A DNA stretch of 64,000 nucleotides, from positions 1,888,001-1,952,000 of the forward strand of contig OZ220480.1 in the NCBI GenBank assembly GCA_965116025.1, in the 5' to 3' direction. Of the stretch, positions 51,031 through 64,000 are shown piece by piece; position 1 is the first letter of the stretch, and each line of letters starts with the position of its first letter. A program made the translations under genes and the position numbers. The notes under the pieces are model-generated. The model searched no databases. It had not been told where the DNA came from and saw only the letters and a program-made list of their open reading frames with translations. Source of the DNA: an uncultured candidatus Porisulfidus sp. (GTDB lineage: Bacteria; Pseudomonadota; Gammaproteobacteria; Poriferisulfidales; Poriferisulfidaceae).

Positions 51031-52767
51031 TCACGACCGGAACAGCCGATATTCGACCAACGCGGACTGGCCGATTATCTCGATGATCGTGACCGAGAGA
51101 TCTGTCCCATAAGAGTCAATCAGCCGCAACGGCTTGCCTAACCGAAACGGCACGGGCTGCCGCCGACCCTCGTCTATGGTGATATTGTCCACGTACAAAT
51201 ACGTGCGATCAAGCGAATCGCGTATTGGATTCAGCCTTCCTCGCAAGCCGGGTAGATTCCCGGAACCTTGAGCGAAAATAGTCGCGCCACCCGATTCGAG
51301 CGGCTCGAGATTAAGCGGCAATCTACCCCGGTCCGGGGTCCACTCCCGCTCAATCCCCGCGGCATACCCTAGCCCGGCGGCGTAGATCGTCATCGGCAAA
51401 TGCGTAGCGTATAGGTTCAGAGTCGCTTCACCAGACTCGTCAGTAACCGCCCGCACCCACGTCTTGTTGGGAAAGAGCGCGAGAACATCAATGCCTGCCA
51501 AAGGCTCGCCTCCAGAACGCGCCACGACTGTCGCGTCCGTCGAAACGAACTCCAATTGGGCGGAGGGAATGCGCAACATCAGATTCGATTCGTCGATCAC
51601 CTCATATACCGGTAGCGCACCGGTGGCTTCCCATGTTCGCTTGCGAATAATCTGCACGCCAGCACCTCGGCAATCCATCAGATATTTTCGATGCTCCGAC
51701 CTTGGCGCGTTGCCCACGGGAATGCGGCCGAACACGGAAGCGAGCGCTTCATTACGGGTTGCTTGGCTGAATTCCATGCCTTCAATAGTGATACCGTTCG
51801 GCAACCGCCCCGGCGAATCGATCTCCAGACGATCCTCGAACATGGACAGCCTAATTCGCCGCGATGATATGGAATAGTCGCGATGCACGACTGCGTTGAC
51901 GATAGCCTCGAAGACAGCGGTTTCGCTGTACTGCGGGATGTTTTCCCGCGCTGGCATCTTGCGCGCCGCGACTCGCATGTTGCGGACGACGAACCGCATG
52001 GCGTCCGCGATCTGGAGTGGCAACGGACCCACGATTTCCCGCGCGTCCAATTGCCCCGAAGCCCGATCCAGTCCGCGATAGCAGGTCGCCATGATGGTCG
52101 CTTGTGGCAACCAGTCCTGAGGCGAGGAAGAGCAAAGCAACACCCCGGCGACGGTCGCGCGTTCCACGCCAGCCTCATCCTGCGCCAGAAGGCGGAGATT
52201 CATCAGACCGTGCCGTGGATTGGTGGACTCATCCACACTGAGTAGCGACTCCCACAGTCGCTCACTGAGCGTCCCAAATCCAGTGTCGGGCACGATCTGC
52301 TTATCGAATCGCAGATAGCGGCTCTGCGCACGGTCTCGCGTTAACCTCAGGCACTCCTCCCTATGCAGGCGGCACTTGGTCGCGCCCACGCGGATGAACG
52401 CTCGCCCACTCCGCTCGTGAAGGGTCCCGCCGCGTGGCGCTTCAACAAGCAAAAACGCCTTGCCATCAAGCTCACGGTGGTAGGTATCAATGCGTAACGG
52501 TGGCTCTATGGCATCGGTACTCGCTTCCATCAAAAGGCGGTCAAGAGCTACCATCTGCTCCCGCGACATTCCCTGAATCGTTCCGTCATCAGCCACCCCA
52601 CATAGCATCACGCCACCGCTCGCGTTGGTGAAAGCACCCAGCTCATCCGCCAAATCGTCTAGATGTGGACTGGTCGGACTGTCGCCACTGAACTTGATTT
52701 GCTTGAATTCCCAGCGGCTGTCCTCACCCAAGCGAAGTTGTCGACGGATGTCGTCGTCTTGGATCAT
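51031..52767 (-). CDS. Schlafen/AlbA_2 domain + HATPase_c_4-like protein with an extra C-terminal beta-rich domain
   Basis: GEDSRWEFK, AFTNASGG..GVADDG, EAIVNAVVHRDY, SPGRLP, TRNEAL. Confidence 0.8.
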   Translation of the reverse strand: MIQDDDIRRQLRLGEDSRWEFKQIKFSGDSPTSPHLDDLADELGAFTNASGGVMLCGVADDGTIQGMSREQMVALDRLLMEASTDAIEPPLRIDTYHRELDGKAFLLVEAPRGGTLHERSGRAFIRVGATKCRLHREECLRLTRDRAQSRYLRFDKQIVPDTGFGTLSERLWESLLSVDESTNPRHGLMNLRLLAQDEAGVERATVAGVLLCSSSPQDWLPQATIMATCYRGLDRASGQLDAREIVGPLPLQIADAMRFVVRNMRVAARKMPARENIPQYSETAVFEAIVNAVVHRDYSISSRRIRLSMFEDRLEIDSPGRLPNGITIEGMEFSQATRNEALASVFGRIPVGNAPRSEHRKYLMDCRGAGVQIIRKRTWEATGALPVYEVIDESNLMLRIPSAQLEFVSTDATVVARSGGEPLAGIDVLALFPNKTWVRAVTDESGEATLNLYATHLPMTIYAAGLGYAAGIEREWTPDRGRLPLNLEPLESGGATIFAQGSGNLPGLRGRLNPIRDSLDRTYLYVDNITIDEGRRQPVPFRLGKPLRLIDSYGTDLSVTIIEIIGQSALVEYRLFRS

Positions 52768-52875
52768 CACGCCACTACCCGGTGTGAAAGATTCATGTTG
52801 CAAGCGCGAGCCTCGCCGAACGAGAGATCGGGAAGGAGCGTCGTTCGGGAAAGGAAGCGAGATTTTTGCTGGTGC

Positions 52876-53292
52876 TCATCGCCATGCTCTACAGCTCATA
52901 GTCCCGTATAGGATAATGACACTGTCAATGAAATTCGTTGCGACACCCAAACACGCCTTCAGCCTCTCTTCGTCGTAATCGCGCGGTACGTTGGTCCGAG
53001 CGTCAGCGTATCGCAACCAATGCTCCAGCGGCACTGATAGCTACTGATTCTCATGCGCGATACGAAACACGGGCTTTGAGCTGTTGGGCAGGTCAGCAGA
53101 GCCGAGGCACTCGGCCAGATGGAGCTTCAACGCCTTCCACAAGCAGTCATAGCAGATTTTGAAGCACCGGATGATGGATTCAGCGATTCCCTCGCGATCC
53201 AAGTCGGAGAGCACCGAACTTTCGCGCCGATGGTTAGCGTACTGCTTCTCCAAGCACTTCAGGGCCAACTCAAATTTCCCACAGTCGATCAT
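52876..53292 (-). pseudogene. HEPN (HI0074-like nucleotidyltransferase substrate-binding) pseudogene
   Basis: DREGIAESIIRCF.ICYD.LWK..K..L, PNSSKPVFR; in-frame TAG at 53041-53043, after which the frame continues (W..YADARTNVPRDYD) to TGA at 52876. Confidence 0.7.
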
Positions 53293-53636: not shown

Positions 53637-54245
53637 TCACGAATTCGTCCGTCTCATAGGCCTGCGTAGATCATACTCGCAGTTGGCACGGTTGCGAAAG
53701 GCGGCCTCAATCAGAAACTTGAGCGCTCCTCCCTGGTTTATTCTTTCCCATGGAGCAACCGAAATTTTGACATCCTGTTCCATAAAATTATCGATGATTC
53801 GGTCAGGCATATACGGATATCGACGCTCGTATTCCGCTCGCTCCTCGACGTGCATCCACTCATCAACATCCGGGTACAGCAGCTCCTTCTCTTCATTCCC
53901 ATGGGGCGCGTGGAAGCGGCCAGGAGATATTCCCGGAAGATTGATAACGACTATCCCCGACTTCTTATTCACCGAACCGTCGTACATGCTCGAGTGAATT
54001 TCCCAATCGACATGCTTTCGGCGTTTAGTCTCTCTGCCGACTAACACTATGGTCACGGTCGAGTCCTTGAGATATTCGTCACGAATAGCGCGGCGTATTC
54101 GCTCGTCGCTCCAATCACTCGGGATGTCGCCAGTGTCGACGGACCGATCTACAAAAACTGAATGCTCTTTTCCAAATTCGACCAGATCTTCCTTGTATTT
54201 CTGATCGTCGCGGTGATGGTAACTAATGAATACCTTATGCATCAT
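53637..54245 (-). CDS. ThsB-like TIR domain protein (DUF1863/MTH538 type)
   Basis: KVFISYHH..D, IRDEYLKDSTVTIVLVG, RKHVDWEI with the catalytic Glu. Confidence 0.88.
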   Translation of the reverse strand: MMHKVFISYHHRDDQKYKEDLVEFGKEHSVFVDRSVDTGDIPSDWSDERIRRAIRDEYLKDSTVTIVLVGRETKRRKHVDWEIHSSMYDGSVNKKSGIVVINLPGISPGRFHAPHGNEEKELLYPDVDEWMHVEERAEYERRYPYMPDRIIDNFMEQDVKISVAPWERINQGGALKFLIEAAFRNRANCEYDLRRPMRRTNS

Positions 54246-55062
54246 GCCCTCCATTAGCAAGAGCGTTGCGTAGCCCCCGTGAAATGAGAGCCACGGCTTC
54301 CTGAATATGAGGAGTGCGGGCCAAAATAGCGTTCTCGTCGCGAGACAATCCGTTGTGCAGGTCGTCTGGCGAATATTTTTGGAAACGATCCCGACCAACC
54401 CATCCATTACGCGAACCGGCCCAGCGCTCGGCGATGCCAACTGTCTCCGCGATATCACGCGCGCACCCTCCGAATCCCCCTATGAGGAACACAGGCTGAC
54501 CTGCTTCAAGAGACAAATATGCCTCCTCGGCGATGCCGGGCATCACCCCTTTGTAGCCCTCGATTCTGCCGCCGAGCATGATTCGCGCCTGAATGTCCTC
54601 GCGCATGGTGGTTCGCATCGATGTAAGTCCTACCGTCCACTCATCTTCATCCGGCTCATGTGGTCGTAACGTCAGCCGTTGCTTTTGCGCGAGACGCGTA
54701 CCATCCAGCGCAAGGAAGACGATATGACTGCAGGGCTCATGTTCAGCAGAGGACGCGACAATCTCGTCCGGCGTCATGCGGATATGCACCGGCCAAGCCA
54801 AATAGTCAGTTACGGAGACTTCCCCACGATGTCGAGGATGATTCTGATAACGCCCCACCAACTCGGCTATAAGCTCCGTGAATCCATGTTGCTGCAGGTC
54901 TCCACCGTAGGCTAGGCTTCTTCCCGACGCGAGTATCTGGAGAGCGATCTCGGCCATCGCGTCATGCAGATGCCGGTCGCTCAACCCCAAGGACCACAAA
55001 TCCGGACTCTCTGAAACCGAGACCCCGACGGTATTCAATCTCTCGATATTTGGTGTGGTCAT
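54235..55062 (-). CDS. Stand-alone SLOG domain protein (LD_cluster2-like)
   Basis: VGVSVSES, LAYGGD, RIMLGG, PGIAEEA, PVFLIGGFGG. Confidence 0.82.
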   Translation of the reverse strand: MTTPNIERLNTVGVSVSESPDLWSLGLSDRHLHDAMAEIALQILASGRSLAYGGDLQQHGFTELIAELVGRYQNHPRHRGEVSVTDYLAWPVHIRMTPDEIVASSAEHEPCSHIVFLALDGTRLAQKQRLTLRPHEPDEDEWTVGLTSMRTTMREDIQARIMLGGRIEGYKGVMPGIAEEAYLSLEAGQPVFLIGGFGGCARDIAETVGIAERWAGSRNGWVGRDRFQKYSPDDLHNGLSRDENAILARTPHIQEAVALISRGLRNALANGGHDA

Positions 55063-56225
55063 GAGCGTTTCTCCAGCCAATCCGCCAACGTCCTCACACG
55101 AACATCCGGCGCAATCTCTCTGAACAGCCGTTCTTCATCCGCGCTCAACAGTGGTTCAGGATAAACGATTGTCGGGGTCGACTCTCCATCGCAAGAAGGC
55201 AATGCCGCCAATGCGATCAACTCCGGGGGCCGGGCCGTAAACACAACCCCCGACGAATCCGCCAAATGGCATCCTACCTGACAGAGCCATAGCCATGTGC
55301 GGAAGACCTCGTCCAAGAGATAGCTCACAACGATGGAGATCTTGTCCATCTGGTCGGGGTCCATGCGTACGACCGGCACATTGCCGAGATAGGCCATTCC
55401 CCTTGGATCGATATCCCGCACACAATCGACCACGACCATCGGCACCAATCGTCGCTTCGCCTCAATAATCTCGCGCCGGCACCACTCGCGCGACGAGTAT
55501 GAAGCGGAATGCACCGCCACGACAGCCCCAGCATCAATCTGATGCAGAAGAACATCCCCGAATGGCAACCCCGGTGGAATGTCGTGGATGTCAAAGAAGC
55601 TATCGAGCGGGCTGTGTTCATAGATCCAGTCGCGAATGCGATTTCCCACCGATTCGCCATCTCCGTCATGTTTCGAGTGGCTAATAAAGACCTGTATCTT
55701 TTCCAAATATCTTTCATACGCCACACTTCCACCCTCGACGCTTTGATGCGCATCTATGCGATGTCGCAACATGCGACAAAATTCGTGGGTCAGTTCCAGC
55801 ATGAGACGCTGAGATCGCCCCATATCAGTTCCATCCCAGCAATTCCAACGCAGAGCTTGTTGCTCAAAATTTGCTTCGACACCCCGGTCATCCATCGTCA
55901 CGGGGAAGAAGCCAGCGGGAATGCCTTTATCGCGCGCATCCCGCGCGATCCCATGCACATATTCAACCCAAGCTGGATCATCAACAAGCGTCGCTTCCGT
56001 CAAAACAACGACAGCGGTGAGATCCGCATCGTTCCAATTGATCGATGAAGGAGTGCGCTCGTCCTGAATCGGCACGCTAAGTCCGAAGACGTTGATACCA
56101 TGCGGCGCGCCAATGGACATGCTGGAATCGCGTCCAAAGCGTTCGTGAAATTGCTTCGCGATTTCACGGCCTCCCGTGTACGAGGGATGCCATATCACGT
56201 ACAACGAGAAGAGTGGGCGCGCCAT
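55059..56225 (-). CDS. TIR domain protein with an N-terminal TIR-like domain and a C-terminal PPEL..YPEP module
   Basis: VFISHSKHDG, FFDIHDIPPG, YSSREWCRREI. Confidence 0.85.
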   Translation of the reverse strand: MARPLFSLYVIWHPSYTGGREIAKQFHERFGRDSSMSIGAPHGINVFGLSVPIQDERTPSSINWNDADLTAVVVLTEATLVDDPAWVEYVHGIARDARDKGIPAGFFPVTMDDRGVEANFEQQALRWNCWDGTDMGRSQRLMLELTHEFCRMLRHRIDAHQSVEGGSVAYERYLEKIQVFISHSKHDGDGESVGNRIRDWIYEHSPLDSFFDIHDIPPGLPFGDVLLHQIDAGAVVAVHSASYSSREWCRREIIEAKRRLVPMVVVDCVRDIDPRGMAYLGNVPVVRMDPDQMDKISIVVSYLLDEVFRTWLWLCQVGCHLADSSGVVFTARPPELIALAALPSCDGESTPTIVYPEPLLSADEERLFREIAPDVRVRTLADWLEKRS

Positions 56226-56591
56226 TGATTCTTTGGTCCGCCGAATCAATGTCTCGACAGATCTCCCGGCAAGCGATGTTTCCCGGCATCAGAGTTAGGA
56301 AGCGAAAAACCATCACCTCCGCTATAGTCTTGGTCGGTCGAGCACAACCACACGAAGCAAATCTCCTTCCACCGTCGATCCATAATCACCACAACGCCTC
56401 ATATTCAGATGCCAAACCGTGCGCCCATTATAAAGTGTCCGCCTATCGACGGTCTCTTTCGACGATATTGAAGAGCAGGGAATTATGTAGGTAACTTGAC
56501 AAGACGGATTGTAATCCACCTACTACTTGACAAGAGATGTAATGAACATATGATATATCGTAACTTGAATATGAAAGTTATGGAGAGAGCG

Positions 56592-57524
56592 ATGTCGAGG
56601 AGAATCGCGAAGACCCTCGGGCTGTTCGACCTGATGAAGATGTATCCGACTGAGACGGACGCCGTTCGATACCTGGAATCCCTCCGATGGGGCGAGAAGC
56701 CGCGTTGCGTCCATTGCGGCGCGACCGACAAGATCACCGCCCAGAAGAAAGCGGGCGATTACTGGTGCGGCTGGTGTCGCCACTACTTCACGGTGCGATC
56801 CGACACCCCGCTGGAGCGATGCAAGATCGACCTGCGCAAGTTCATCTACGCGGCCTATCTGCTGATGACCTCCCGCAAGGGGATCAGTAGCCTGCAGCTG
56901 AGCAAGGAGCTGTCCGTGCAGCAGCGCACCGCCTGGTATATCCTGCATCGTCTGCGCGTGGCCTGCGGCGGCAAGCTGGAGCCCCTGCGCGGGACCGTGG
57001 AGGTGGACGAGGTCTATCTCGGAGGGCGGGAAGCCAACAAGCACGAGAGCCGGAAGGCGCATGGCGGGCATTTCGCCGAGAAGCAGATCGTGCTGGGGAT
57101 GCGCGAGCGAGGCGGGCGCGCGGTCGCCTTGCCGATCGAGCGCGCCGACAAGCCCACCCTGCAAGGGGCCGTCCACCGGCATGTCCAGCCGGGAACCACG
57201 ATCTGCACGGACGAGAACCCCTCCTACCATGGCGTCGCTCGCCGGCATCGCGCAGTGAACCACAGCGCGAAGGAATACGTCAATGGCATGGCGCATACGA
57301 ACGGGATCGAATCGGTCTGGGCGGTGCTCAAGCGCGGCTTCGACGGCGTCTACCACAACTGGTCGAGAAAGCATTGCCGCCAATACGTCAACGAGTTCAT
57401 GTTCCGTCTCAACGAGGGGAACTGCGAGCGCGACACCCAGGACCGCCTGGACGATCTGTTCCGGGCCATGATGGGCAAGACGATCACGTACGAGGATCTC
57501 ACCGCGTCCGGGGAAGGCTGGTAG
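56592..57524 (+). CDS. IS1595-family (ISXO2-like) DDE transposase
   Basis: Zn ribbon CVHC..CGWC, KGISSLQL HTH, VEVDEVYLGG, TDE, HTNGIESVW, YVNEFMFR. Confidence 0.95.
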   Translation: MSRRIAKTLGLFDLMKMYPTETDAVRYLESLRWGEKPRCVHCGATDKITAQKKAGDYWCGWCRHYFTVRSDTPLERCKIDLRKFIYAAYLLMTSRKGISSLQLSKELSVQQRTAWYILHRLRVACGGKLEPLRGTVEVDEVYLGGREANKHESRKAHGGHFAEKQIVLGMRERGGRAVALPIERADKPTLQGAVHRHVQPGTTICTDENPSYHGVARRHRAVNHSAKEYVNGMAHTNGIESVWAVLKRGFDGVYHNWSRKHCRQYVNEFMFRLNEGNCERDTQDRLDDLFRAMMGKTITYEDLTASGEGW

Positions 57525-57810: not shown

Positions 57811-60800
57811 ATGAGCGAGCAAACCCCGATACGTCCTGGACAGATTTTGGTCGGCATCCTGTTTAACCAGCCGATGCGAGTCGAGACCGTGCATGCGAAT
57901 GGAGCTAACTCTTGGAGTGTGGGTCTGGTCGGTACGCATACGGGACAATTTCGTCGCGTTGTCCTTACCGATGATGCCATCAAGAAGATATCCATCATTG
58001 ATGGATCCAACCACTCATACGATGGCGATGGCCACGTTCTTCGGCTCGGCTTGAAAGCTTGCGCGCTCGGGATCGCCCATGAATTTGATCCTTATTTCGG
58101 CCTTTCGATATCCCGAGTGGATCCACTCCCGCATCAACTCGAAGCAGTCTACGAACACATGCTCAAACTGTCTACAGTTCGGTTTCTGCTTGCCGACGAT
58201 GCTGGTGCAGGCAAGACGATTATGGCGGGTCTACTGGTGCGCGAGCTCAGATTACGTGGACTCGCGGAACGCATTCTAATCGTCTGCCCCGCAAACCTAA
58301 CGTTCCAATGGCAACGTGAACTGAGCGAGAAATTCGACGAGAAGTTCCTCGTGCTCAAAGGTGGAGACATCCGTGATCAATTTGGTGTCAACCAGTGGTT
58401 GGAGCAACAGCGTATCATCACTTCGCTCGACCTCGCAAAACGTACCGATATCCTTCCCGGACTACAGCAAGTGCATTGGGATCTCGTCATCGTTGATGAA
58501 GCGCATCGCATGTCTTGGTCGCCACCAGCCAGAAAGACGGCGCGCTATTCGCTCGGCGAGTTGCTACGCGACAGCACCGACCACATCCTTCTACTAACCG
58601 CCACGCCACACAAAGGCGACCCGGAGAATTTTGCGCGGTTCTTGCAGCTCATCGACCGTGACGCTTATGCTGATGTCAAGTCGATTCATGAGGCCATAAA
58701 CCATCGTCGGGCGCCATTCTACCTACGGCGCACCAAAGAGGCGATGTTCTACTTTCCAGAGCGCCAAACCGACGGCGAATGGAAGGCGCGCCCAGTGTTC
58801 ACGAAGCGCATCCCCCGCACAGTCGGATTCATGATTGATGAGGATGAATGGGAACTGTATTTAGAGATCACCCGATTCGTGAAGCGGCAGAGTGCAAATG
58901 CTGCCGCCCAAAGAGACGATCCTCGCGCACGAGCTGTCGGTTTCCTGATGGTGCTCTACCAAAGACGCCTTGCCTCCAGTGTTTTCGCGATGCGGCACTC
59001 GCTTGAGAACCGGGCCAAACGCCTTGAAAAAAGATTGCAGCGCGCTCAGTTTGTGGCAAAGAACGCACCACCAAGCCTTCCCGATCCTGAGGAGATCGAT
59101 GAGATGGAAGATGATGAGCGGGAACGCTTTGAAGAACTGCTTGATGCGGTCACTTTAGCCGATAACGCCGAGCAAGTGCGCGACGAAATTTTGGAACTGA
59201 GACAGTTTGCGGACAGAGCCAAGGCGATCGAAAACTCTGGCAAGGAGGCGAAGCTCACCAAGCTCAAAGACATACTACAGAGTGAAGGCTTCTTCGACCT
59301 TCCCGGTCAACGCTTGCTCCTGTTCACCGAATTTAAGGATACGCTCAACTGCCTTGTAGACCATCTCAAAACTTGGGGATTTACGGTCGGCTATATTCAC
59401 GGCGGCATGAAGCCTGGTTCGCGTGACGAGCCGGGCACTCGGCTTCACGCGGAACAGCAGTTCCGGGAAGGAAAAACCCAAGTATTGGTCGCCACAGAGG
59501 CGGCAGGCGAAGGTATTAATCTGCAGTGTTGCCATATTCTCTTCAACTACGATATCCCATGGAATCCAAACCGGCTTGAACAGCGCATGGGCCGGATCCA
59601 CCGGTACGGGCAAAATCATGACTGCCTAATCTTCAACTTCGTCGCGACCAATACTATCGAAGGGCGTGTCCTCAAACGTCTGATGGACAAGCTTCAGGAA
59701 ATCAGGGACGCGCTGGATGACGACGTGGTATTCAACGTGATTGGTGAAATCCTGCCCGCCACGCAAATCGAACGTGTATTGCGAGACTACTATGCGGGCA
59801 GGCTGGATGAGGCCAATTTGGAAAACCACATGCTGGAGGGCGTAGACGAAGATCGTTTCCGGGCCATTTGCCAGACCGCGCTCGAAGGCCTCGCATCAAA
59901 GAAGCTTAACCTCGAGATGCTCATCGAGCGACGCGCCAAAGCAAGAGAGCAACGCGTCGTACCGGAGAGCATCGCCCGGTTCATGGTAGATTGCGCCAAG
60001 GATGCGTCGCTGGCCCTCAAATCTGTGCCGAAGCTTGCCCATACGTTCGACCCTGGGCGAACACCGCCCGTCCTGAAGAAACACGAACGAGGCGCGGACT
60101 GGAAGCTCCCACAAATCGCGGCGCGCTATCCCCGTTTGTCGACGGACCGTGAAACGGCAGATCAAAACCATCTGGAATGGATCACACCCGGTCACCCTCT
60201 GTTCGAAGCGTTACGCCTCCACGCTCTTGAAACTGCAAAAAACGTCTTTACTCAAGGGGCATGCTTCCACTCTCTGGCCCATGAGGCACCGACGCGACTC
60301 GACGTATACCGGGCGAAAGTCGTAGACGGATTGGGGCATACTGTTCATGAGCGGCTTTTCGCCGTTGAGTTGCGCGAAGACGGCGAACCGCAACGACGAG
60401 AACCCGGACTGCTTAGCGATCTCACCCCCGCTGCTCCACCAGATAATATCCCATCCGTAGCACATCTTCCAGAGGCCACCGATTGGCTTATGGAAACCAT
60501 GTTGGAACCATTCCTTGAAAAGGTTCAGTCGGAACGTTCGGCTGAGATCGAACGTATCACCAAGCATGTGGAACTGTCGCTTACCGAGGTACTGCAGCGG
60601 ATCGACGTAGAGATTGGCCACGCCGCCGAAGAGGCGAAAAAAGGAAGTGCCGGAGCCAAGGGTCGTCTCACCCAAGCAGAAGCACGTCACGGCGAAGTAC
60701 TGGAGCGGCGCAACCGCCGCAACGAGGAGCTTGAACGGGAGCAAAACGTAACGCTGCAGGAAGTCGAAAGACTAACAAGTTTGCTGATCCTACCTCACCC

Positions 60801-61215
60801 CGAGCGCAGCGCTCCCGAAGTCAAGCGATTGCGGCCAAACCCCGAAACTGAGATGAAGGCGATGCGCGTCGTCATGGACCATGAAAACGCGCGAGGATGC
60901 CAAGTCTACGATGTGCACGAGAAAAATCTTGGTTACGACGTGACGAGCCTCGACCTGCAGTCTGGCGAGCTACGCCTGATCGAGGTGAAAGGGCTTGCCG
61001 CAACAACCGGCAATATCCTGCTTACTCCGAACGAGTTTCGAGTGGCCGAGGACCGCCGAGATTGCTACTGGCTCTATATCGTGACCGGTTGCGCGAGTGC
61101 CCTGAAGCTCAAACTTATCAAGAACCCTGCCCGTCTTCAATGGCGCGACATAACTAAGGTGCAACACTACTGGCTTGCAGTCGACACGTTGCATGCTACT
61201 GGAAGTGACCAGTGA
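57811..61215 (+). CDS. SNF2-family helicase/ATPase with a C-terminal DUF3883 (NOV-C, PD-(D/E)XK) domain
   Basis: LLADDAGAGKT, DEAH, LTATPH, EGINLQ, QRMGRIHR; C-terminal GYDVTS..RLIEVKG..LTPNE. Confidence 0.93.
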   Translation: MSEQTPIRPGQILVGILFNQPMRVETVHANGANSWSVGLVGTHTGQFRRVVLTDDAIKKISIIDGSNHSYDGDGHVLRLGLKACALGIAHEFDPYFGLSISRVDPLPHQLEAVYEHMLKLSTVRFLLADDAGAGKTIMAGLLVRELRLRGLAERILIVCPANLTFQWQRELSEKFDEKFLVLKGGDIRDQFGVNQWLEQQRIITSLDLAKRTDILPGLQQVHWDLVIVDEAHRMSWSPPARKTARYSLGELLRDSTDHILLLTATPHKGDPENFARFLQLIDRDAYADVKSIHEAINHRRAPFYLRRTKEAMFYFPERQTDGEWKARPVFTKRIPRTVGFMIDEDEWELYLEITRFVKRQSANAAAQRDDPRARAVGFLMVLYQRRLASSVFAMRHSLENRAKRLEKRLQRAQFVAKNAPPSLPDPEEIDEMEDDERERFEELLDAVTLADNAEQVRDEILELRQFADRAKAIENSGKEAKLTKLKDILQSEGFFDLPGQRLLLFTEFKDTLNCLVDHLKTWGFTVGYIHGGMKPGSRDEPGTRLHAEQQFREGKTQVLVATEAAGEGINLQCCHILFNYDIPWNPNRLEQRMGRIHRYGQNHDCLIFNFVATNTIEGRVLKRLMDKLQEIRDALDDDVVFNVIGEILPATQIERVLRDYYAGRLDEANLENHMLEGVDEDRFRAICQTALEGLASKKLNLEMLIERRAKAREQRVVPESIARFMVDCAKDASLALKSVPKLAHTFDPGRTPPVLKKHERGADWKLPQIAARYPRLSTDRETADQNHLEWITPGHPLFEALRLHALETAKNVFTQGACFHSLAHEAPTRLDVYRAKVVDGLGHTVHERLFAVELREDGEPQRREPGLLSDLTPAAPPDNIPSVAHLPEATDWLMETMLEPFLEKVQSERSAEIERITKHVELSLTEVLQRIDVEIGHAAEEAKKGSAGAKGRLTQAEARHGEVLERRNRRNEELEREQNVTLQEVERLTSLLILPHPERSAPEVKRLRPNPETEMKAMRVVMDHENARGCQVYDVHEKNLGYDVTSLDLQSGELRLIEVKGLAATTGNILLTPNEFRVAEDRRDCYWLYIVTGCASALKLKLIKNPARLQWRDITKVQHYWLAVDTLHATGSDQ

Positions 61216-61598
61216 CTCAAAAGATTAAACATCTGGAACTCATTCAATGCGTGATCAATCGTCTTGCCGCCAACTCGTTCCGCATCAAAGGATGGGCCGT
61301 CATCCTTGTTTCGGCACTTCTCGTTCTGCTCGTCCGGGAAGGCCGGACCGATCTCGCCTGGATCGGTCTCGTCCCGGTATTCGTCTTCTGGGGGCTCGAC
61401 GGCTACTTCTTGTGGCAGGAGAGATCATTCCGTAGCCTTTATGACCATGTCCGTGTGTTACAAGACGACCATGTAGATTTCTCTATGGACACATCGGCGT
61501 TTCGCCAATTCTGGCTCAATACGGTATTTTCAGTCACCCTATGGCCCTTTTACGTTGCATTGGCCATTTCGATCTCAGCCGCTCTCTTGCTCAAATAA
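61212..61598 (+). CDS. Small 3-TM membrane protein of the type found beside ThsB-like TIR genes
   Basis: HLELIQ.VINRLAANSF.IKGW, WGLDGYFL.QER.FR.LY; GTGA overlap with the helicase stop. Confidence 0.75.
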   Translation: MTQKIKHLELIQCVINRLAANSFRIKGWAVILVSALLVLLVREGRTDLAWIGLVPVFVFWGLDGYFLWQERSFRSLYDHVRVLQDDHVDFSMDTSAFRQFWLNTVFSVTLWPFYVALAISISAALLLK

Positions 61599-61621
61599 TC
61601 AATTACATGGAGACACCTAAG

Positions 61622-62119
61622 ATGAAGCGAAAAGTGTTTTACAGTTTTCACTACGAAAAAGATAGTTGGCGTGCAGCTATGGTGCGTAACATCGGAGCTA
61701 TAGACGGAAATGCGCCAGCCACCGACAACGATTGGGAATCAGTAAAGAAAGGAGGAGATTGGGCGATCAAGAGATGGATCGCAAAACAGATGGAAGGCCG
61801 AACATGCTGCGTCGTCCTAGTGGGGACACATACCGCCAATCGCAAGTGGATCAATCACGAAATCATCAAATCGTGGAACAAAGGCATGGGGCTGGTTGGA
61901 ATACATATTCACGGTTTGAAGGACTGTGACGGGTGCGCATCATCAAGAGGGAGTAATCCATTTGACTTTATCACTTACAGAGATCAGTGCCGAACTTTGT
62001 CGTCCACCGCGAAGTGCTACGACCCACCAGGCAGGAATAGCCGCGAACGCTATGACTGGATCGCTATGCACATATCAAACGCAGTTGAGGAGGCCATTCG
62101 GATTCGTAATGCATGGTAA
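61622..62119 (+). CDS. ThsB-like TIR domain protein (DUF1863 type)
   Basis: KRKVFYSFHY..D.WR...VRN, IKRWI..QM, VVLVG, RKWINHEI with the catalytic Glu. Confidence 0.9.
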   Translation: MKRKVFYSFHYEKDSWRAAMVRNIGAIDGNAPATDNDWESVKKGGDWAIKRWIAKQMEGRTCCVVLVGTHTANRKWINHEIIKSWNKGMGLVGIHIHGLKDCDGCASSRGSNPFDFITYRDQCRTLSSTAKCYDPPGRNSRERYDWIAMHISNAVEEAIRIRNAW

Positions 62120-62152
62120 TCTCGCCGTCCTGTCATCTGGCGAAATGTGCAG

Positions 62153-64000
62153 ATGATTCCCCAGCAGTGCAAGCGCCTAGCGGAGGTGGACTTCCCGATC
62201 GCTGCAGTATCGCGCCATGCGGCACGCGAAAAATCTATTCGCCACGGCCACCCATCGACGTTACATCTCTGGTGGGCACGACGACCACTCGCCTCGTCAC
62301 GGGCAGTACTACTGGGGCTTTTACTACCCGACCCCTGCGACCCTCATTGTCCAGAGGCATTCAAGAAAGAAGCACGTAAAATATTACCAACGGTTGGATG
62401 TCGGCGTGTGAAATCTGACCAAGCCATACGCTATAGCCTTCTGAAATTCATCGCCGACTTCGCTAACTGGGATAACAGCGCAGAACAGATTTATCTTGAT
62501 GCGGGCCGGTCTCTTGTAAGAGCCGCTCATGGGCAGGCTCCACCATTGGTAGTTGATCCGTTTGCGGGAGGTGGATCAATCCCCCTAGAAGCATTGCGGC
62601 TTGGTTGCGATGCGTTCGCAAGTGACCTCAATCCGGTAGCCTGTCTAATTCTCAAGGTTATGTTGGAGGATATCCCGCGTCATGGTCCGGATCTAGCCAA
62701 TGATCTGTGTGCGATAGGTGCTGAAATCAAACAGCAAGCCAAACAGGAGTTGTCAGATCTCTACCCCAATGATACGGACGGTGCAACCCCGATAGCATAT
62801 CTCTGGGCGCGCACGGTAAGTTGCGAAGCACCGGATTGCGGTGCTGAGATTCCGCTGATGCGTTCGTTCTGGCTGTGCAGGAAGACAAAACGTAAGCGAG
62901 CACTACGATTTTCCATCAAACGAAATAAAGGTACTCCACCCCAAGTGACGTTTGATGTGTTCGAACCCAAGACCGATGGCGACGTACATGCAGGCACCGT
63001 GACTCGCGCCAAAGCAACATGCTTGTGTTGCGGCACAGTCCTACCACCTGAACGGGTACGCACGCAGCTCGCTACCGAGCGCGGTGGTGCAGATGTGATT
63101 TTCGATGAGGAAGGCAAACGTATCGGTGGAGCACGAATGACAGCAGTAGTGACGCTTCGACCACACGAAGCGGGCCGCCATTACCGCTTACCGACAGATG
63201 CGGACTATGCAGCAGTGCGTAAGGCGCAAGCACGAGTCGCAAAAATACTGGGAAAGTGGGAGCGTGGTGGTAGGCAGGGGCTATGCCCAGTGCCAAATGA
63301 ACCTTTACCACCAATCGGGACACTAGGATTTCGAGTTCAGCGCTACGGCATGCTCAAGTGGGGCGATCTGTTTACCGCACGGCAGAAGATTGCACTGGTG
63401 GAACTGACAAATCTAATTCGACAGGCTGGTAGCAAATCCGAAATTGGACTTATCTCTGCCGCAATCAGCCGATGTGCAACCCACTGGTCGTCTGGAACAA
63501 TGTGGATACAGGACCTCGAAGCTGTAGCAAATATATTTGGCCGACAAGCATTACCTATCGTTTGGGATTTTGCAGAAGCATGCGGTTTCGGCGACGGTGG
63601 AGCGACTTTAGATGGACAAGTTAGCTGGATTGCCAAAGTGGCGGGGCAACTTCCCATTCGAAAAGCAGCAAACATACAAGCTTCAGATGCCGCTGACTAC
63701 CCACTCCCGGATCAAAGCGCAACTATCTGGTTTACGGATCCACCTTATTACGATGCCGTTCCGTATGCCGACTTATCCGATTTTTTTATGGTTTGGCTAA
63801 AGCGCGGTCTGCCCAATCACCCTCTCTTGCGTGACCCCTACGATCCAAACAACCCTCTTACGCCCAAGGACCGTGAAGCAGTACAGGACGAAACAAAGAA
63901 AAATGATGGTCGCTCCAAAGATCGTTCATGGTTCGAGGAAACTATGGCGAAAGCGTTCACCGAGGGAAGGCGCGTTCTTACCAAGGATGGTGTTGGTTCT
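62153..64000 (+). CDS. DUF1156-containing adenine-specific DNA methyltransferase; runs off the right edge
   Basis: Absent from the ORF track because it has no stop in the window. Hand translation gives MIPQQCKRLAEVDFPI..REKSIRHGHPSTLHLWWARRPL, DPFAGGGSIPLEA (62555) and FTDPPYYD (63731), all in one frame. Confidence 0.92.
   Translation, partial: MIPQQCKRLAEVDFPIAAVSRHAAREKSIRHGHPSTLHLWWARRPLASSRAVLLGLLLPDPCDPHCPEAFKKEARKILPTVGCRRVKSDQAIRYSLLKFIADFANWDNSAEQIYLDAGRSLVRAAHGQAPPLVVDPFAGGGSIPLEALRLGCDAFASDLNPVACLILKVMLEDIPRHGPDLANDLCAIGAEIKQQAKQELSDLYPNDTDGATPIAYLWARTVSCEAPDCGAEIPLMRSFWLCRKTKRKRALRFSIKRNKGTPPQVTFDVFEPKTDGDVHAGTVTRAKATCLCCGTVLPPERVRTQLATERGGADVIFDEEGKRIGGARMTAVVTLRPHEAGRHYRLPTDADYAAVRKAQARVAKILGKWERGGRQGLCPVPNEPLPPIGTLGFRVQRYGMLKWGDLFTARQKIALVELTNLIRQAGSKSEIGLISAAISRCATHWSSGTMWIQDLEAVANIFGRQALPIVWDFAEACGFGDGGATLDGQVSWIAKVAGQLPIRKAANIQASDAADYPLPDQSATIWFTDPPYYDAVPYADLSDFFMVWLKRGLPNHPLLRDPYDPNNPLTPKDREAVQDETKKNDGRSKDRSWFEETMAKAFTEGRRVLTKDGVGS

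What the first reader, a model, noticed from the sequence alone, without database searches (positions are those of the whole stretch)
57811..64000. Membrane-protein + TIR cassette nested inside an SNF2-helicase/DUF1156-methylase (restriction-like, BREX-related) operon
Seen: helicase-DUF3883, then via a GTGA overlap a 3-TM protein, a ThsB-like TIR 23 nt later, and the DUF1156 methylase 33 nt after that, all co-oriented. Known: SNF2 + DUF1156 genes normally occur with a DUF499 ATPase in restriction-like defence loci. Inference: the TM+TIR pair has no ThsA-type ligand-binding domain. It could be a two-gene abortive-infection module (TIR signal opening a small pore) that guards the host restriction system and fires when a phage inhibits it, as PrrC does inside type I RM loci.
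Basis: partly seen in the sequence, partly recalled or inferred. Interest (0 to 1): 0.72.

Follow-up and report, generated by a model that had tools for sequence, protein, structure and literature searches.

The report
Thoeris-type pair inside Hma defence operon
Two intact genes, a TIR enzyme and a small membrane protein with three predicted helices, sit inside a known Hma anti-phage operon; they match an already catalogued defence candidate and are likely a Thoeris-type system in which a phage-triggered nucleotide signal would open a cell-killing pore, which makes this an ordinary case of defence genes nesting in a known hotspot.

Summary
The layout is real. The host operon is Hma (type-1 BREX-related): HmaA helicase-nuclease, HmaB DUF1156 methylase and, past the window's end, HmaC DUF499 ATPase. 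The nested pair matches PADLOC candidate PDC-M50: membrane gene M50A (1e-44), TIR M50B/ThsB (2e-62), catalytic Glu intact. The membrane family is large (5,058 clusters) and sits beside a TIR in 57-67 of 80 related loci, in either order and with several TIR clades. Only 13 of 80 have the full Hma-embedded order; 0 of 13 loci from evenly drawn genomes and 0 of 10 plasmid/phage loci show Hma. Published work finds 63% of Hma loci carry interchangeable cargo. Best fit is type V Thoeris (TIR makes 3'cADPR; three-helix DUF2270/ThsF effector): the family shows weak, in-register DUF2270 similarity above controls, but ThsF sequences could not be seen. Side finding: 12 proteins fuse a SLOG domain to this membrane domain. 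New member of a known kind; low interest.

The parts
57811..61215 (+). HmaA: SNF2 helicase with C-terminal NOV_C (PD-(D/E)XK) nuclease, 1134 aa
   Evidence: Pfam SNF2 4e-16, Helicase_C 3e-24, NOV_C 2e-20; PADLOC HmaA 2.2e-178
61212..61598 (+). Membrane protein, 128 aa, three predicted helices; PDC-M50A; likely Thoeris effector (ThsF-like)
   Evidence: PADLOC PDC-M50A 9.7e-45, four models; no Pfam hit of its own; hydropathy; AF2 model; weak family-level DUF2270 similarity
61622..62119 (+). ThsB-type TIR enzyme, 165 aa (alternative start 61607); PDC-M50B; catalytic Glu80 present
   Evidence: Pfam ThsB_TIR 1.6e-27; PADLOC ThsB 1.2e-65 and PDC-M50B 2e-62; PDB 8WCF 7.5e-36, 9B7D and 6LHY 5e-23; Glu in 57 of 58 aligned neighbour TIRs
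62153..64000 (+). HmaB: DUF1156 adenine methylase; continues past the window to 65155, followed by DUF433-like (65293-65550), DUF5615 PIN (65547-65924) and HmaC DUF499 ATPase (65917-68685), all in window numbering
   Evidence: Pfam DUF1156 8.5e-23; PADLOC HmaB 2e-88; DPPY motif in sequence; downstream genes

Best explanation
The pair is PADLOC candidate PDC-M50 nested in an Hma operon and is likely a self-contained Thoeris-type abortive-infection system, most likely type V: the ThsB TIR would sense a phage protein and convert NAD+ to a cyclic ADP-ribose (3'cADPR inferred), which would bind basic pockets of an oligomer of the membrane protein and breach the membrane. Shown here: gene identities, intact catalytic Glu, tight TIR linkage, independence from Hma. 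Inferred from published relatives: phage sensing, signal identity, oligomeric pore, cell death. Its place between hmaA and hmaB is best read as cargo in a known insertion hotspot that shares the operon's promoter (inferred) and has travelled with one Hma lineage.
For: PADLOC M50A/M50B and HmaA/B/C matches. TIR's closest solved relatives include B. cereus ThsB (6LHY named as BcThsB in PMC11204291) and an entry called cyclic ADP-ribose synthase ThsB1. TIR adjacency: 57 or 67 of 80 GTDB loci, 9 of 13 loci from evenly drawn genomes, 9 of 10 plasmid/phage loci, in both gene orders and with at least four TIR groups, which fits a diffusible signal better than a fixed protein contact. Twelve full-length proteins among 21 hits fuse a SLOG cluster-2 domain to this membrane domain, which marks it as an output domain of nucleotide signalling. 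DUF2270 link: 19 of 100 members hit it at E<=1, one passes the curated cut-off (25.2 bits), hits share one register; a 9-sequence DUF2270 profile scores 60 of 392 members at >=5 bits against 0 of 392 reversed and 0 of 392 shuffled; 0 of 9 canonical DUF2270 genes have a TIR within 1.5 kb, so the TIR-linked 'DUF2270' effector must be a divergent branch. The family occurs in B. thuringiensis and Neobacillus, the taxa from which type V was tested. Frequency (8 of 300 and 5 of 200 genomes) is of the same order as the 1.2% reported for type V.
Against: The window protein itself has no DUF2270 hit; 0 of the 74 closest relatives hit it. Profile-profile comparison is weak (probability 8%, 2% and 7%), with a shallow DUF2270 alignment. 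DUF3278 hits as many members (20 of 100, best 1.8e-5) and the Atlas's nearest named family is 8xMP (0.84). No ThsF or ThsJ sequence could be seen, and type IX also makes 3'cADPR with an effector the text does not describe. One of two tested type V systems did not respond to added 3'cADPR. 13 of 80 loci show no nearby TIR. No experiment exists for this locus.
Confidence: 0.68

Rival explanations
1. Same signal-and-pore logic, but another Thoeris type: type IX (ThsJ) or one of the predicted, untested membrane effectors, possibly with another signal.
For: DUF2270 similarity is marginal; 29 effector types were annotated, several with membrane helices; type IX TIR also makes 3'cADPR.
Against: Three helices, in-register DUF2270 hits above controls and high abundance fit type V best; no SLATT, macro, ion-channel or DUF6650 hit in the Pfam scans.
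Confidence: 0.17
2. Roles reversed: the membrane protein senses infection at the envelope and the TIR is an NAD+-depleting killer.
For: Many bacterial TIRs are NADase effectors; the Thoeris survey itself warns of this for unverified types.
Against: The TIR is a short stand-alone ThsB-clade protein; the membrane protein has almost no outside-facing loop, swaps TIR partners freely and is fused behind SLOG domains.
Confidence: 0.07
3. One reading: the pair monitors Hma and fires when a phage inhibits it, like PrrC in type I RM.
For: The arrangement is kept in 13 of the 80 closest loci across several phyla at 63-81% identity; Hma-linked copies cluster on the tree (4 changes against 19.5 in shuffles); the helicase stop overlaps the membrane gene's start. 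Payne et al. raise backup roles for embedded systems.
Against: 61 of 80 loci have no Hma gene at >=55% identity (53 of them with over 3 kb flank each side); 0 of 13 loci from evenly drawn genomes and 0 of 10 plasmid/phage loci show Hma; 0 of 12 methylase-picked Hma loci carry the gene. Within Hma the TIR is swapped (L022, L028, L038) or decayed (L008, L018, L074). PrrC is almost only found embedded. Clustering is also what one insertion plus hitch-hiking gives.
Confidence: 0.05
4. The pair is decaying, inactive cargo in this genome.
For: Broken TIRs are common among relatives, and the genome's second copy is followed by a truncated ThsB.
Against: Both frames are full length, keep the catalytic Glu and the family's invariant residues.
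Confidence: 0.03

Closest known systems
PADLOC candidate PDC-M50 (A + B); Payne et al. 2024, 10.1101/2024.01.29.577857
   Same: Both genes match the two component models over nearly their full length, adjacent. [quoted passage not shown]
   Different: Here embedded in Hma. The paper's main text does not name PDC-M50; its tables were closed.
Type V Thoeris (ThsB + ThsF/DUF2270); Yirmiya et al. 2025, 10.64898/2025.12.03.692087
   Same: Two genes; ThsB-clade TIR; effector with three membrane helices and no separate ligand-binding domain; common; weak DUF2270 similarity in the family.
   Different: The window protein has no DUF2270 hit of its own; signal, heptamer and defence are untested here; identity with ThsF is not proven.
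Hma / type-1 DUF499-centred BREX-related system (PMC11232893; PMC12839542)
   Same: Helicase-nuclease, DUF1156 methylase, DUF499 ATPase in order; cargo between the genes, as in 62.7% of 1,485 (Payne) and about 66.5% (Liu) of loci.
   Different: The cargo is a TIR-membrane pair and a DUF433-like/PIN pair rather than Septu, PARIS, Ppl or HEC systems; a TIR cargo is not named in the sections read.
PrrC in EcoprrI (guard)
   Same: Suicide-type module inside a restriction-like operon.
   Different: PrrC is almost always embedded and held off by the RM complex; this pair is mostly free-standing and nothing ties it to Hma proteins.
Type I and II Thoeris (SIR2-SLOG; TM-macro)
   Same: Same TIR family as type I ThsB (6LHY, 9B7D); type II also kills through the membrane.
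   Different: No SIR2, SLOG or macro domain in the effector.

Membership tests
Hma / type-1 BR | SNF2 helicase with C-terminal PD-(D/E)XK nuclease (HmaA) | tested here: met
Hma / type-1 BR | DUF1156 N6-adenine methylase (HmaB) | tested here: met
Hma / type-1 BR | DUF499 AAA+ ATPase (HmaC) in the same operon | tested here: met
PDC-M50 | Adjacent genes matching PDC-M50A and PDC-M50B models | tested here: met
   9.7e-45 and 2e-62; PADLOC's own score rules were not available
Thoeris (any type) | Stand-alone ThsB-clade TIR with catalytic glutamate | tested here: met
Thoeris (any type) | Effector gene consistently next to thsB | tested here: met
   57-67 of 80, 9 of 13, 9 of 10 loci
Thoeris (any type) | TIR makes an ADPR-derived signal on infection that activates the effector; phage defence | not testable with these tools
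   needs LC-MS and plaque assays
Type V Thoeris | Effector with three membrane helices | tested here: met
   predicted only:
Type V Thoeris | Effector belongs to DUF2270/ThsF | tested here: inconclusive
   family-level weak hits above controls; none for the window protein; hhalign weak; ThsF sequences not seen
Type V Thoeris | Ring-shaped homo-oligomer (heptamer in AF3) | not testable with these tools
   the complex tool takes at most four copies
Type V Thoeris | Signal is 3'cADPR | not testable with these tools
   inferred from the TIR clade only
Type I / II Thoeris | SIR2-SLOG or TM-macro effector | tested here: not met
   128-aa effector with no such domain
Type VII Thoeris | SLATT-domain effector | tested here: inconclusive
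   no SLATT hit in the Pfam scans shown; remote kinship not excluded
PrrC-like guard | Found almost only inside its host system | tested here: not met
   13 of 80 fully embedded; 0 of 13 and 0 of 10 in independent sets
PrrC-like guard | Held inactive by the host complex and released by a phage inhibitor | not testable with these tools
   needs co-expression with anti-restriction proteins
E. coli TIR-I (PMC11350192) | Partner protein of the listed pair belongs to this membrane family | tested here: not met
   listed pair AGK12357/8 are 367 and 376 aa; the plasmid gave no match to the family profile
E. coli TIR-III, IV, VII, VIII (PMC11350192) | Partner protein belongs to this membrane family | tested here: inconclusive

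The most novel reading that the evidence does not exclude
One Hma lineage has domesticated a Thoeris pair as a guard: the cassette spread with it across at least five phyla, the pore gene stays fixed behind the helicase while the TIR sensor is swapped, and the TIR fires when phage blocks Hma. This would be the first second-messenger guard of a restriction-like system. The same pore might also be the missing killer for SLOG-only (type III-like) Thoeris, as the SLOG-membrane fusions and the SLOG-TIR-TIR cluster 5 kb upstream hint.
Probability: 0.06. Interest if true: 0.7.

Novelty: new member of a known kind. Interest (0 to 1): 0.2.

Why it matters
As it stands it matters little: Hma, cargo inside Hma, the PDC-M50 pair and TIR-plus-three-helix Thoeris systems are all described. 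Two small additions are useful: the likely identity of PADLOC's untested PDC-M50 with type V Thoeris, which would give a mechanism to a family of some 5,000 clusters annotated as hypothetical; and the SLOG-membrane fusions, which could help locate the signal-binding step and the effector of type III Thoeris. If the guard model were true it would link second-messenger immunity to surveillance of a restriction system.

Tried and rejected
Fold searches of the model gave nothing specific: Foldseek no hit at E<=0.001; wide search only generic helical bundles, Z<=9.2. Four-copy complex prediction: no answer (score 0.22, mark 0.42), counted neither for nor against. NCBIfam: no real match. Counting helices to separate canonical DUF2270 from this family did not discriminate (three segments each). 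A Bacteroidota-enrichment test was not possible: the centre genome proved to be Ignavibacteriota. A metagenome scan for close HmaA relatives returned one fragment. The methylase matched only this genome among 401 of its phylum at E<=1e-60, so cargo could not be counted there. TIR-I of Wang et al. rejected; a guessed accession match to TIR-IV failed. Promoter and terminator scan at chance level. Sequencing runs: no RNA holder listed. Earlier scan findings: none relevant. Literature: no listed paper contained PDC-M50; DUF2270 and type V Thoeris appeared only in the Yirmiya preprint among 20 listed of 86. P0121, P0122 and P0057 look like frameshift read-throughs, not true membrane-TIR fusions, and were not counted.
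Full report
Observation. The window lies at G000:C1:1888001-1952000, so I read on: the methylase ends at 65155, then come a DUF433-like gene (name by recalled resemblance), a DUF5615 PIN gene and a DUF499 ATPase at about 65917-68685. GC is 0.46-0.59 across the operon and most of about 51,000-69,000 (one IS bin reaches 0.64), against 0.59-0.71 either side, so the region is likely an acquired island.

Host operon. PADLOC names the three large genes HmaA (2.2e-178), HmaB (2e-88) and HmaC (3.5e-90). Hma is the type-1 DUF499-centred BREX-related system (PMC12839542; passages and section 29 read); HmaA's nuclease defends against T4 (PMC11232893; abstract and section 18 read). Cargo inside Hma is the rule: 931 of 1,485 systems (62.7%) in Payne et al. 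(10.1101/2024.01.29.577857; first third of Results, sections 10 and 11 read) and about 66.5% in Liu et al. Embedded genes are co-oriented in 96.7% of cases, so co-orientation says nothing special.

The nested pair. The membrane protein matches four PADLOC PDC-M50A models (best 9.7e-45) and the TIR matches PDC-M50B (2e-62) and ThsB (1.2e-65). PDC systems are that paper's 145 untested candidates; its supplementary tables were closed, so I did not see how PDC-M50 is defined. The TIR aligns with solved ThsB proteins (8WCF 7.5e-36; 9B7D and 6LHY 5e-23) and keeps the glutamate (Glu80) that aligns with theirs; that this is the catalytic residue is recalled. It is Glu in 57 of 58 aligned neighbour TIRs. 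The membrane protein has three hydrophobic segments and conserved basic residues outside them; its model is a helical hairpin plus a third helix.

Distribution. The family is large: 1,166 close homologues and 5,058 clusters at 50% identity. Of 301 GTDB matches the 80 best were returned, a set biased toward the query. A TIR lies within 300 nt in 57 of 80 by tblastn with the window TIR and 67 of 80 by local profiles, which were seeded partly from the same loci and include fragments. The full order helicase-membrane-TIR-methylase holds in 13 of 80; four more have the helicase upstream with a broken TIR or no methylase in range; 61 have no Hma gene at 55% identity or more, though some have distant SNF2 or methylase genes 1-6 kb away. 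In evenly drawn genomes the family occurs in 8 of 300 (own phylum) and 5 of 200; of those 13 loci 9 have an adjacent TIR and none has an Hma hit within the 1.5 kb flanks, two being cut by contig ends. Ten plasmid and prophage loci that I chose from some 140 matching records have an adjacent TIR in 9 cases, in either order, and no Hma hit. Conversely, 12 Hma-type loci picked by the methylase in other genomes, with their upstream DNA visible, carry other ORFs or none, never this gene (the centre genome and one cut locus left out). This genome has a second family copy at C1:91889-92305 among IS elements, followed by a truncated ThsB and a convergent intact TIR, without Hma.

Tree. In a quick tree of 101 family members (fragments and duplicates left out; the careful search did not finish; 134 columns) the 21 Hma-linked copies cluster (4 changes against 19.5 in shuffles) in a shallow group spanning Pseudomonadota, Binatota, Acidobacteriota, Latescibacterota and Tectomicrobia, with helicase, membrane protein and methylase mostly 60-81% identical to the window. 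That fits one insertion carried along by horizontal transfer. Inside the group the TIR has been replaced by another ThsB subgroup in three loci and is broken or missing in others. This is the only evidence that leans toward functional coupling, and hitch-hiking explains it as well.

Which Thoeris type. Yirmiya et al. (10.64898/2025.12.03.692087; text parts 1-5 of 8 and Methods read, figures and tables not held) verified types V-XI. Type V pairs a 3'cADPR-making ThsB with ThsF, a three-helix DUF2270-annotated protein modelled as a heptameric channel with basic pockets, in about 1.2% of genomes. The window protein has no DUF2270 hit, nor do its 74 closest relatives. But 19 of 100 more diverse members do at E<=1, one above the curated cut-off, in one register, and a DUF2270 profile scores 60 of 392 members at 5 bits or more against none of the reversed or shuffled controls. 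Canonical DUF2270 genes had no TIR within 1.5 kb in 9 of 9 loci, which are partly related to each other. Against this, hhalign probabilities are 2-8%, DUF3278 hits 20 of 100, and the type IX effector is undescribed in the text. I put type V at about two in three, and Thoeris-type logic of any type at about 85%.

SLOG fusions. A search with P0182 returned 21 proteins; 12 carry a SLOG cluster-2 region followed by the membrane domain with differing linkers, two more are fragments with the membrane domain. SLOG domains bind TIR signals in type I Thoeris (PMC11204291, passages), so the fusion supports reading the membrane domain as the output of nucleotide signalling. Their gene neighbourhoods could not be fetched.

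Mechanism, step by step. Shown: identities, intact frames, conserved Glu, TIR linkage, independence from Hma. Inferred from relatives: phage protein activates ThsB; NAD+ becomes a cyclic ADPR; the signal binds between subunits of the membrane protein; the membrane is breached and infection aborts. Untested: any contact with Hma.

Verdict. A new member of known kinds: a PDC-M50, likely type V Thoeris, pair in an Hma hotspot. Interest 0.2. Closed supplements of the two preprints, and two oversized files of PMC11350192 (of which I read text parts 1-2 of 7, passages and parts of three supplements), may already state the identity I could only infer.

Noticed in passing
window 53637-56249 (minus strand): Three overlapping genes: TIR_2 protein (55059-56249), SLOG cluster-2 protein (54235-55080) and ThsB TIR (53637-54458); resembles type III Thoeris as described in the Yirmiya introduction. 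The same block sits directly upstream of a truncated Hma-membrane-TIR locus in L003 at 74-79% identity.
   Followed up: partly
P0182, P0164, P0450-P0457, P0461, P0462: SLOG cluster-2 domain fused to the PDC-M50A membrane domain in 12 proteins of 36-91% identity with different linkers; not seen described in the papers searched.
   Followed up: partly
window 56496-57524: IS1595-family transposase between the SLOG-TIR cluster and hmaA.
   Followed up: no
G000:C1:91889-92932 (L110): Second PDC-M50A gene followed by a truncated ThsB and a convergent intact 123-aa TIR, flanked by IS30-like elements (IS family by recalled resemblance), inside a glycosyltransferase region.
   Followed up: partly
65293-65924 and 69187-69420 in window numbering (beyond the window; L001): DUF433-like plus DUF5615 PIN pair embedded between hmaB and hmaC, shared by several related Hma loci; a second DUF433-like copy marks the island's right edge.
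   Followed up: partly
window 51031-53292 (minus strand): Schlafen AlbA_2 plus HATPase_c_4 protein (590 aa) and an 83-aa fragment resembling a HEPN nucleotidyltransferase partner (recalled resemblance), at the island's left edge next to mutL.
   Followed up: no
L094 1921-6132: Vibrio chagasii plasmid island with two membrane-family genes and at least two TIR genes, like the multi-copy Thoeris islands in the Yirmiya paper.
   Followed up: no
L096 1347-2635: TIR plus membrane-family pair next to the integrase of a 14-kb Vibrio phage of Vinavirales.
   Followed up: no
H101-H103, H148: In some actinobacterial plasmids the family match lies in a gene annotated as HIT-domain protein, possibly another nucleotide-binding fusion.
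   Followed up: no
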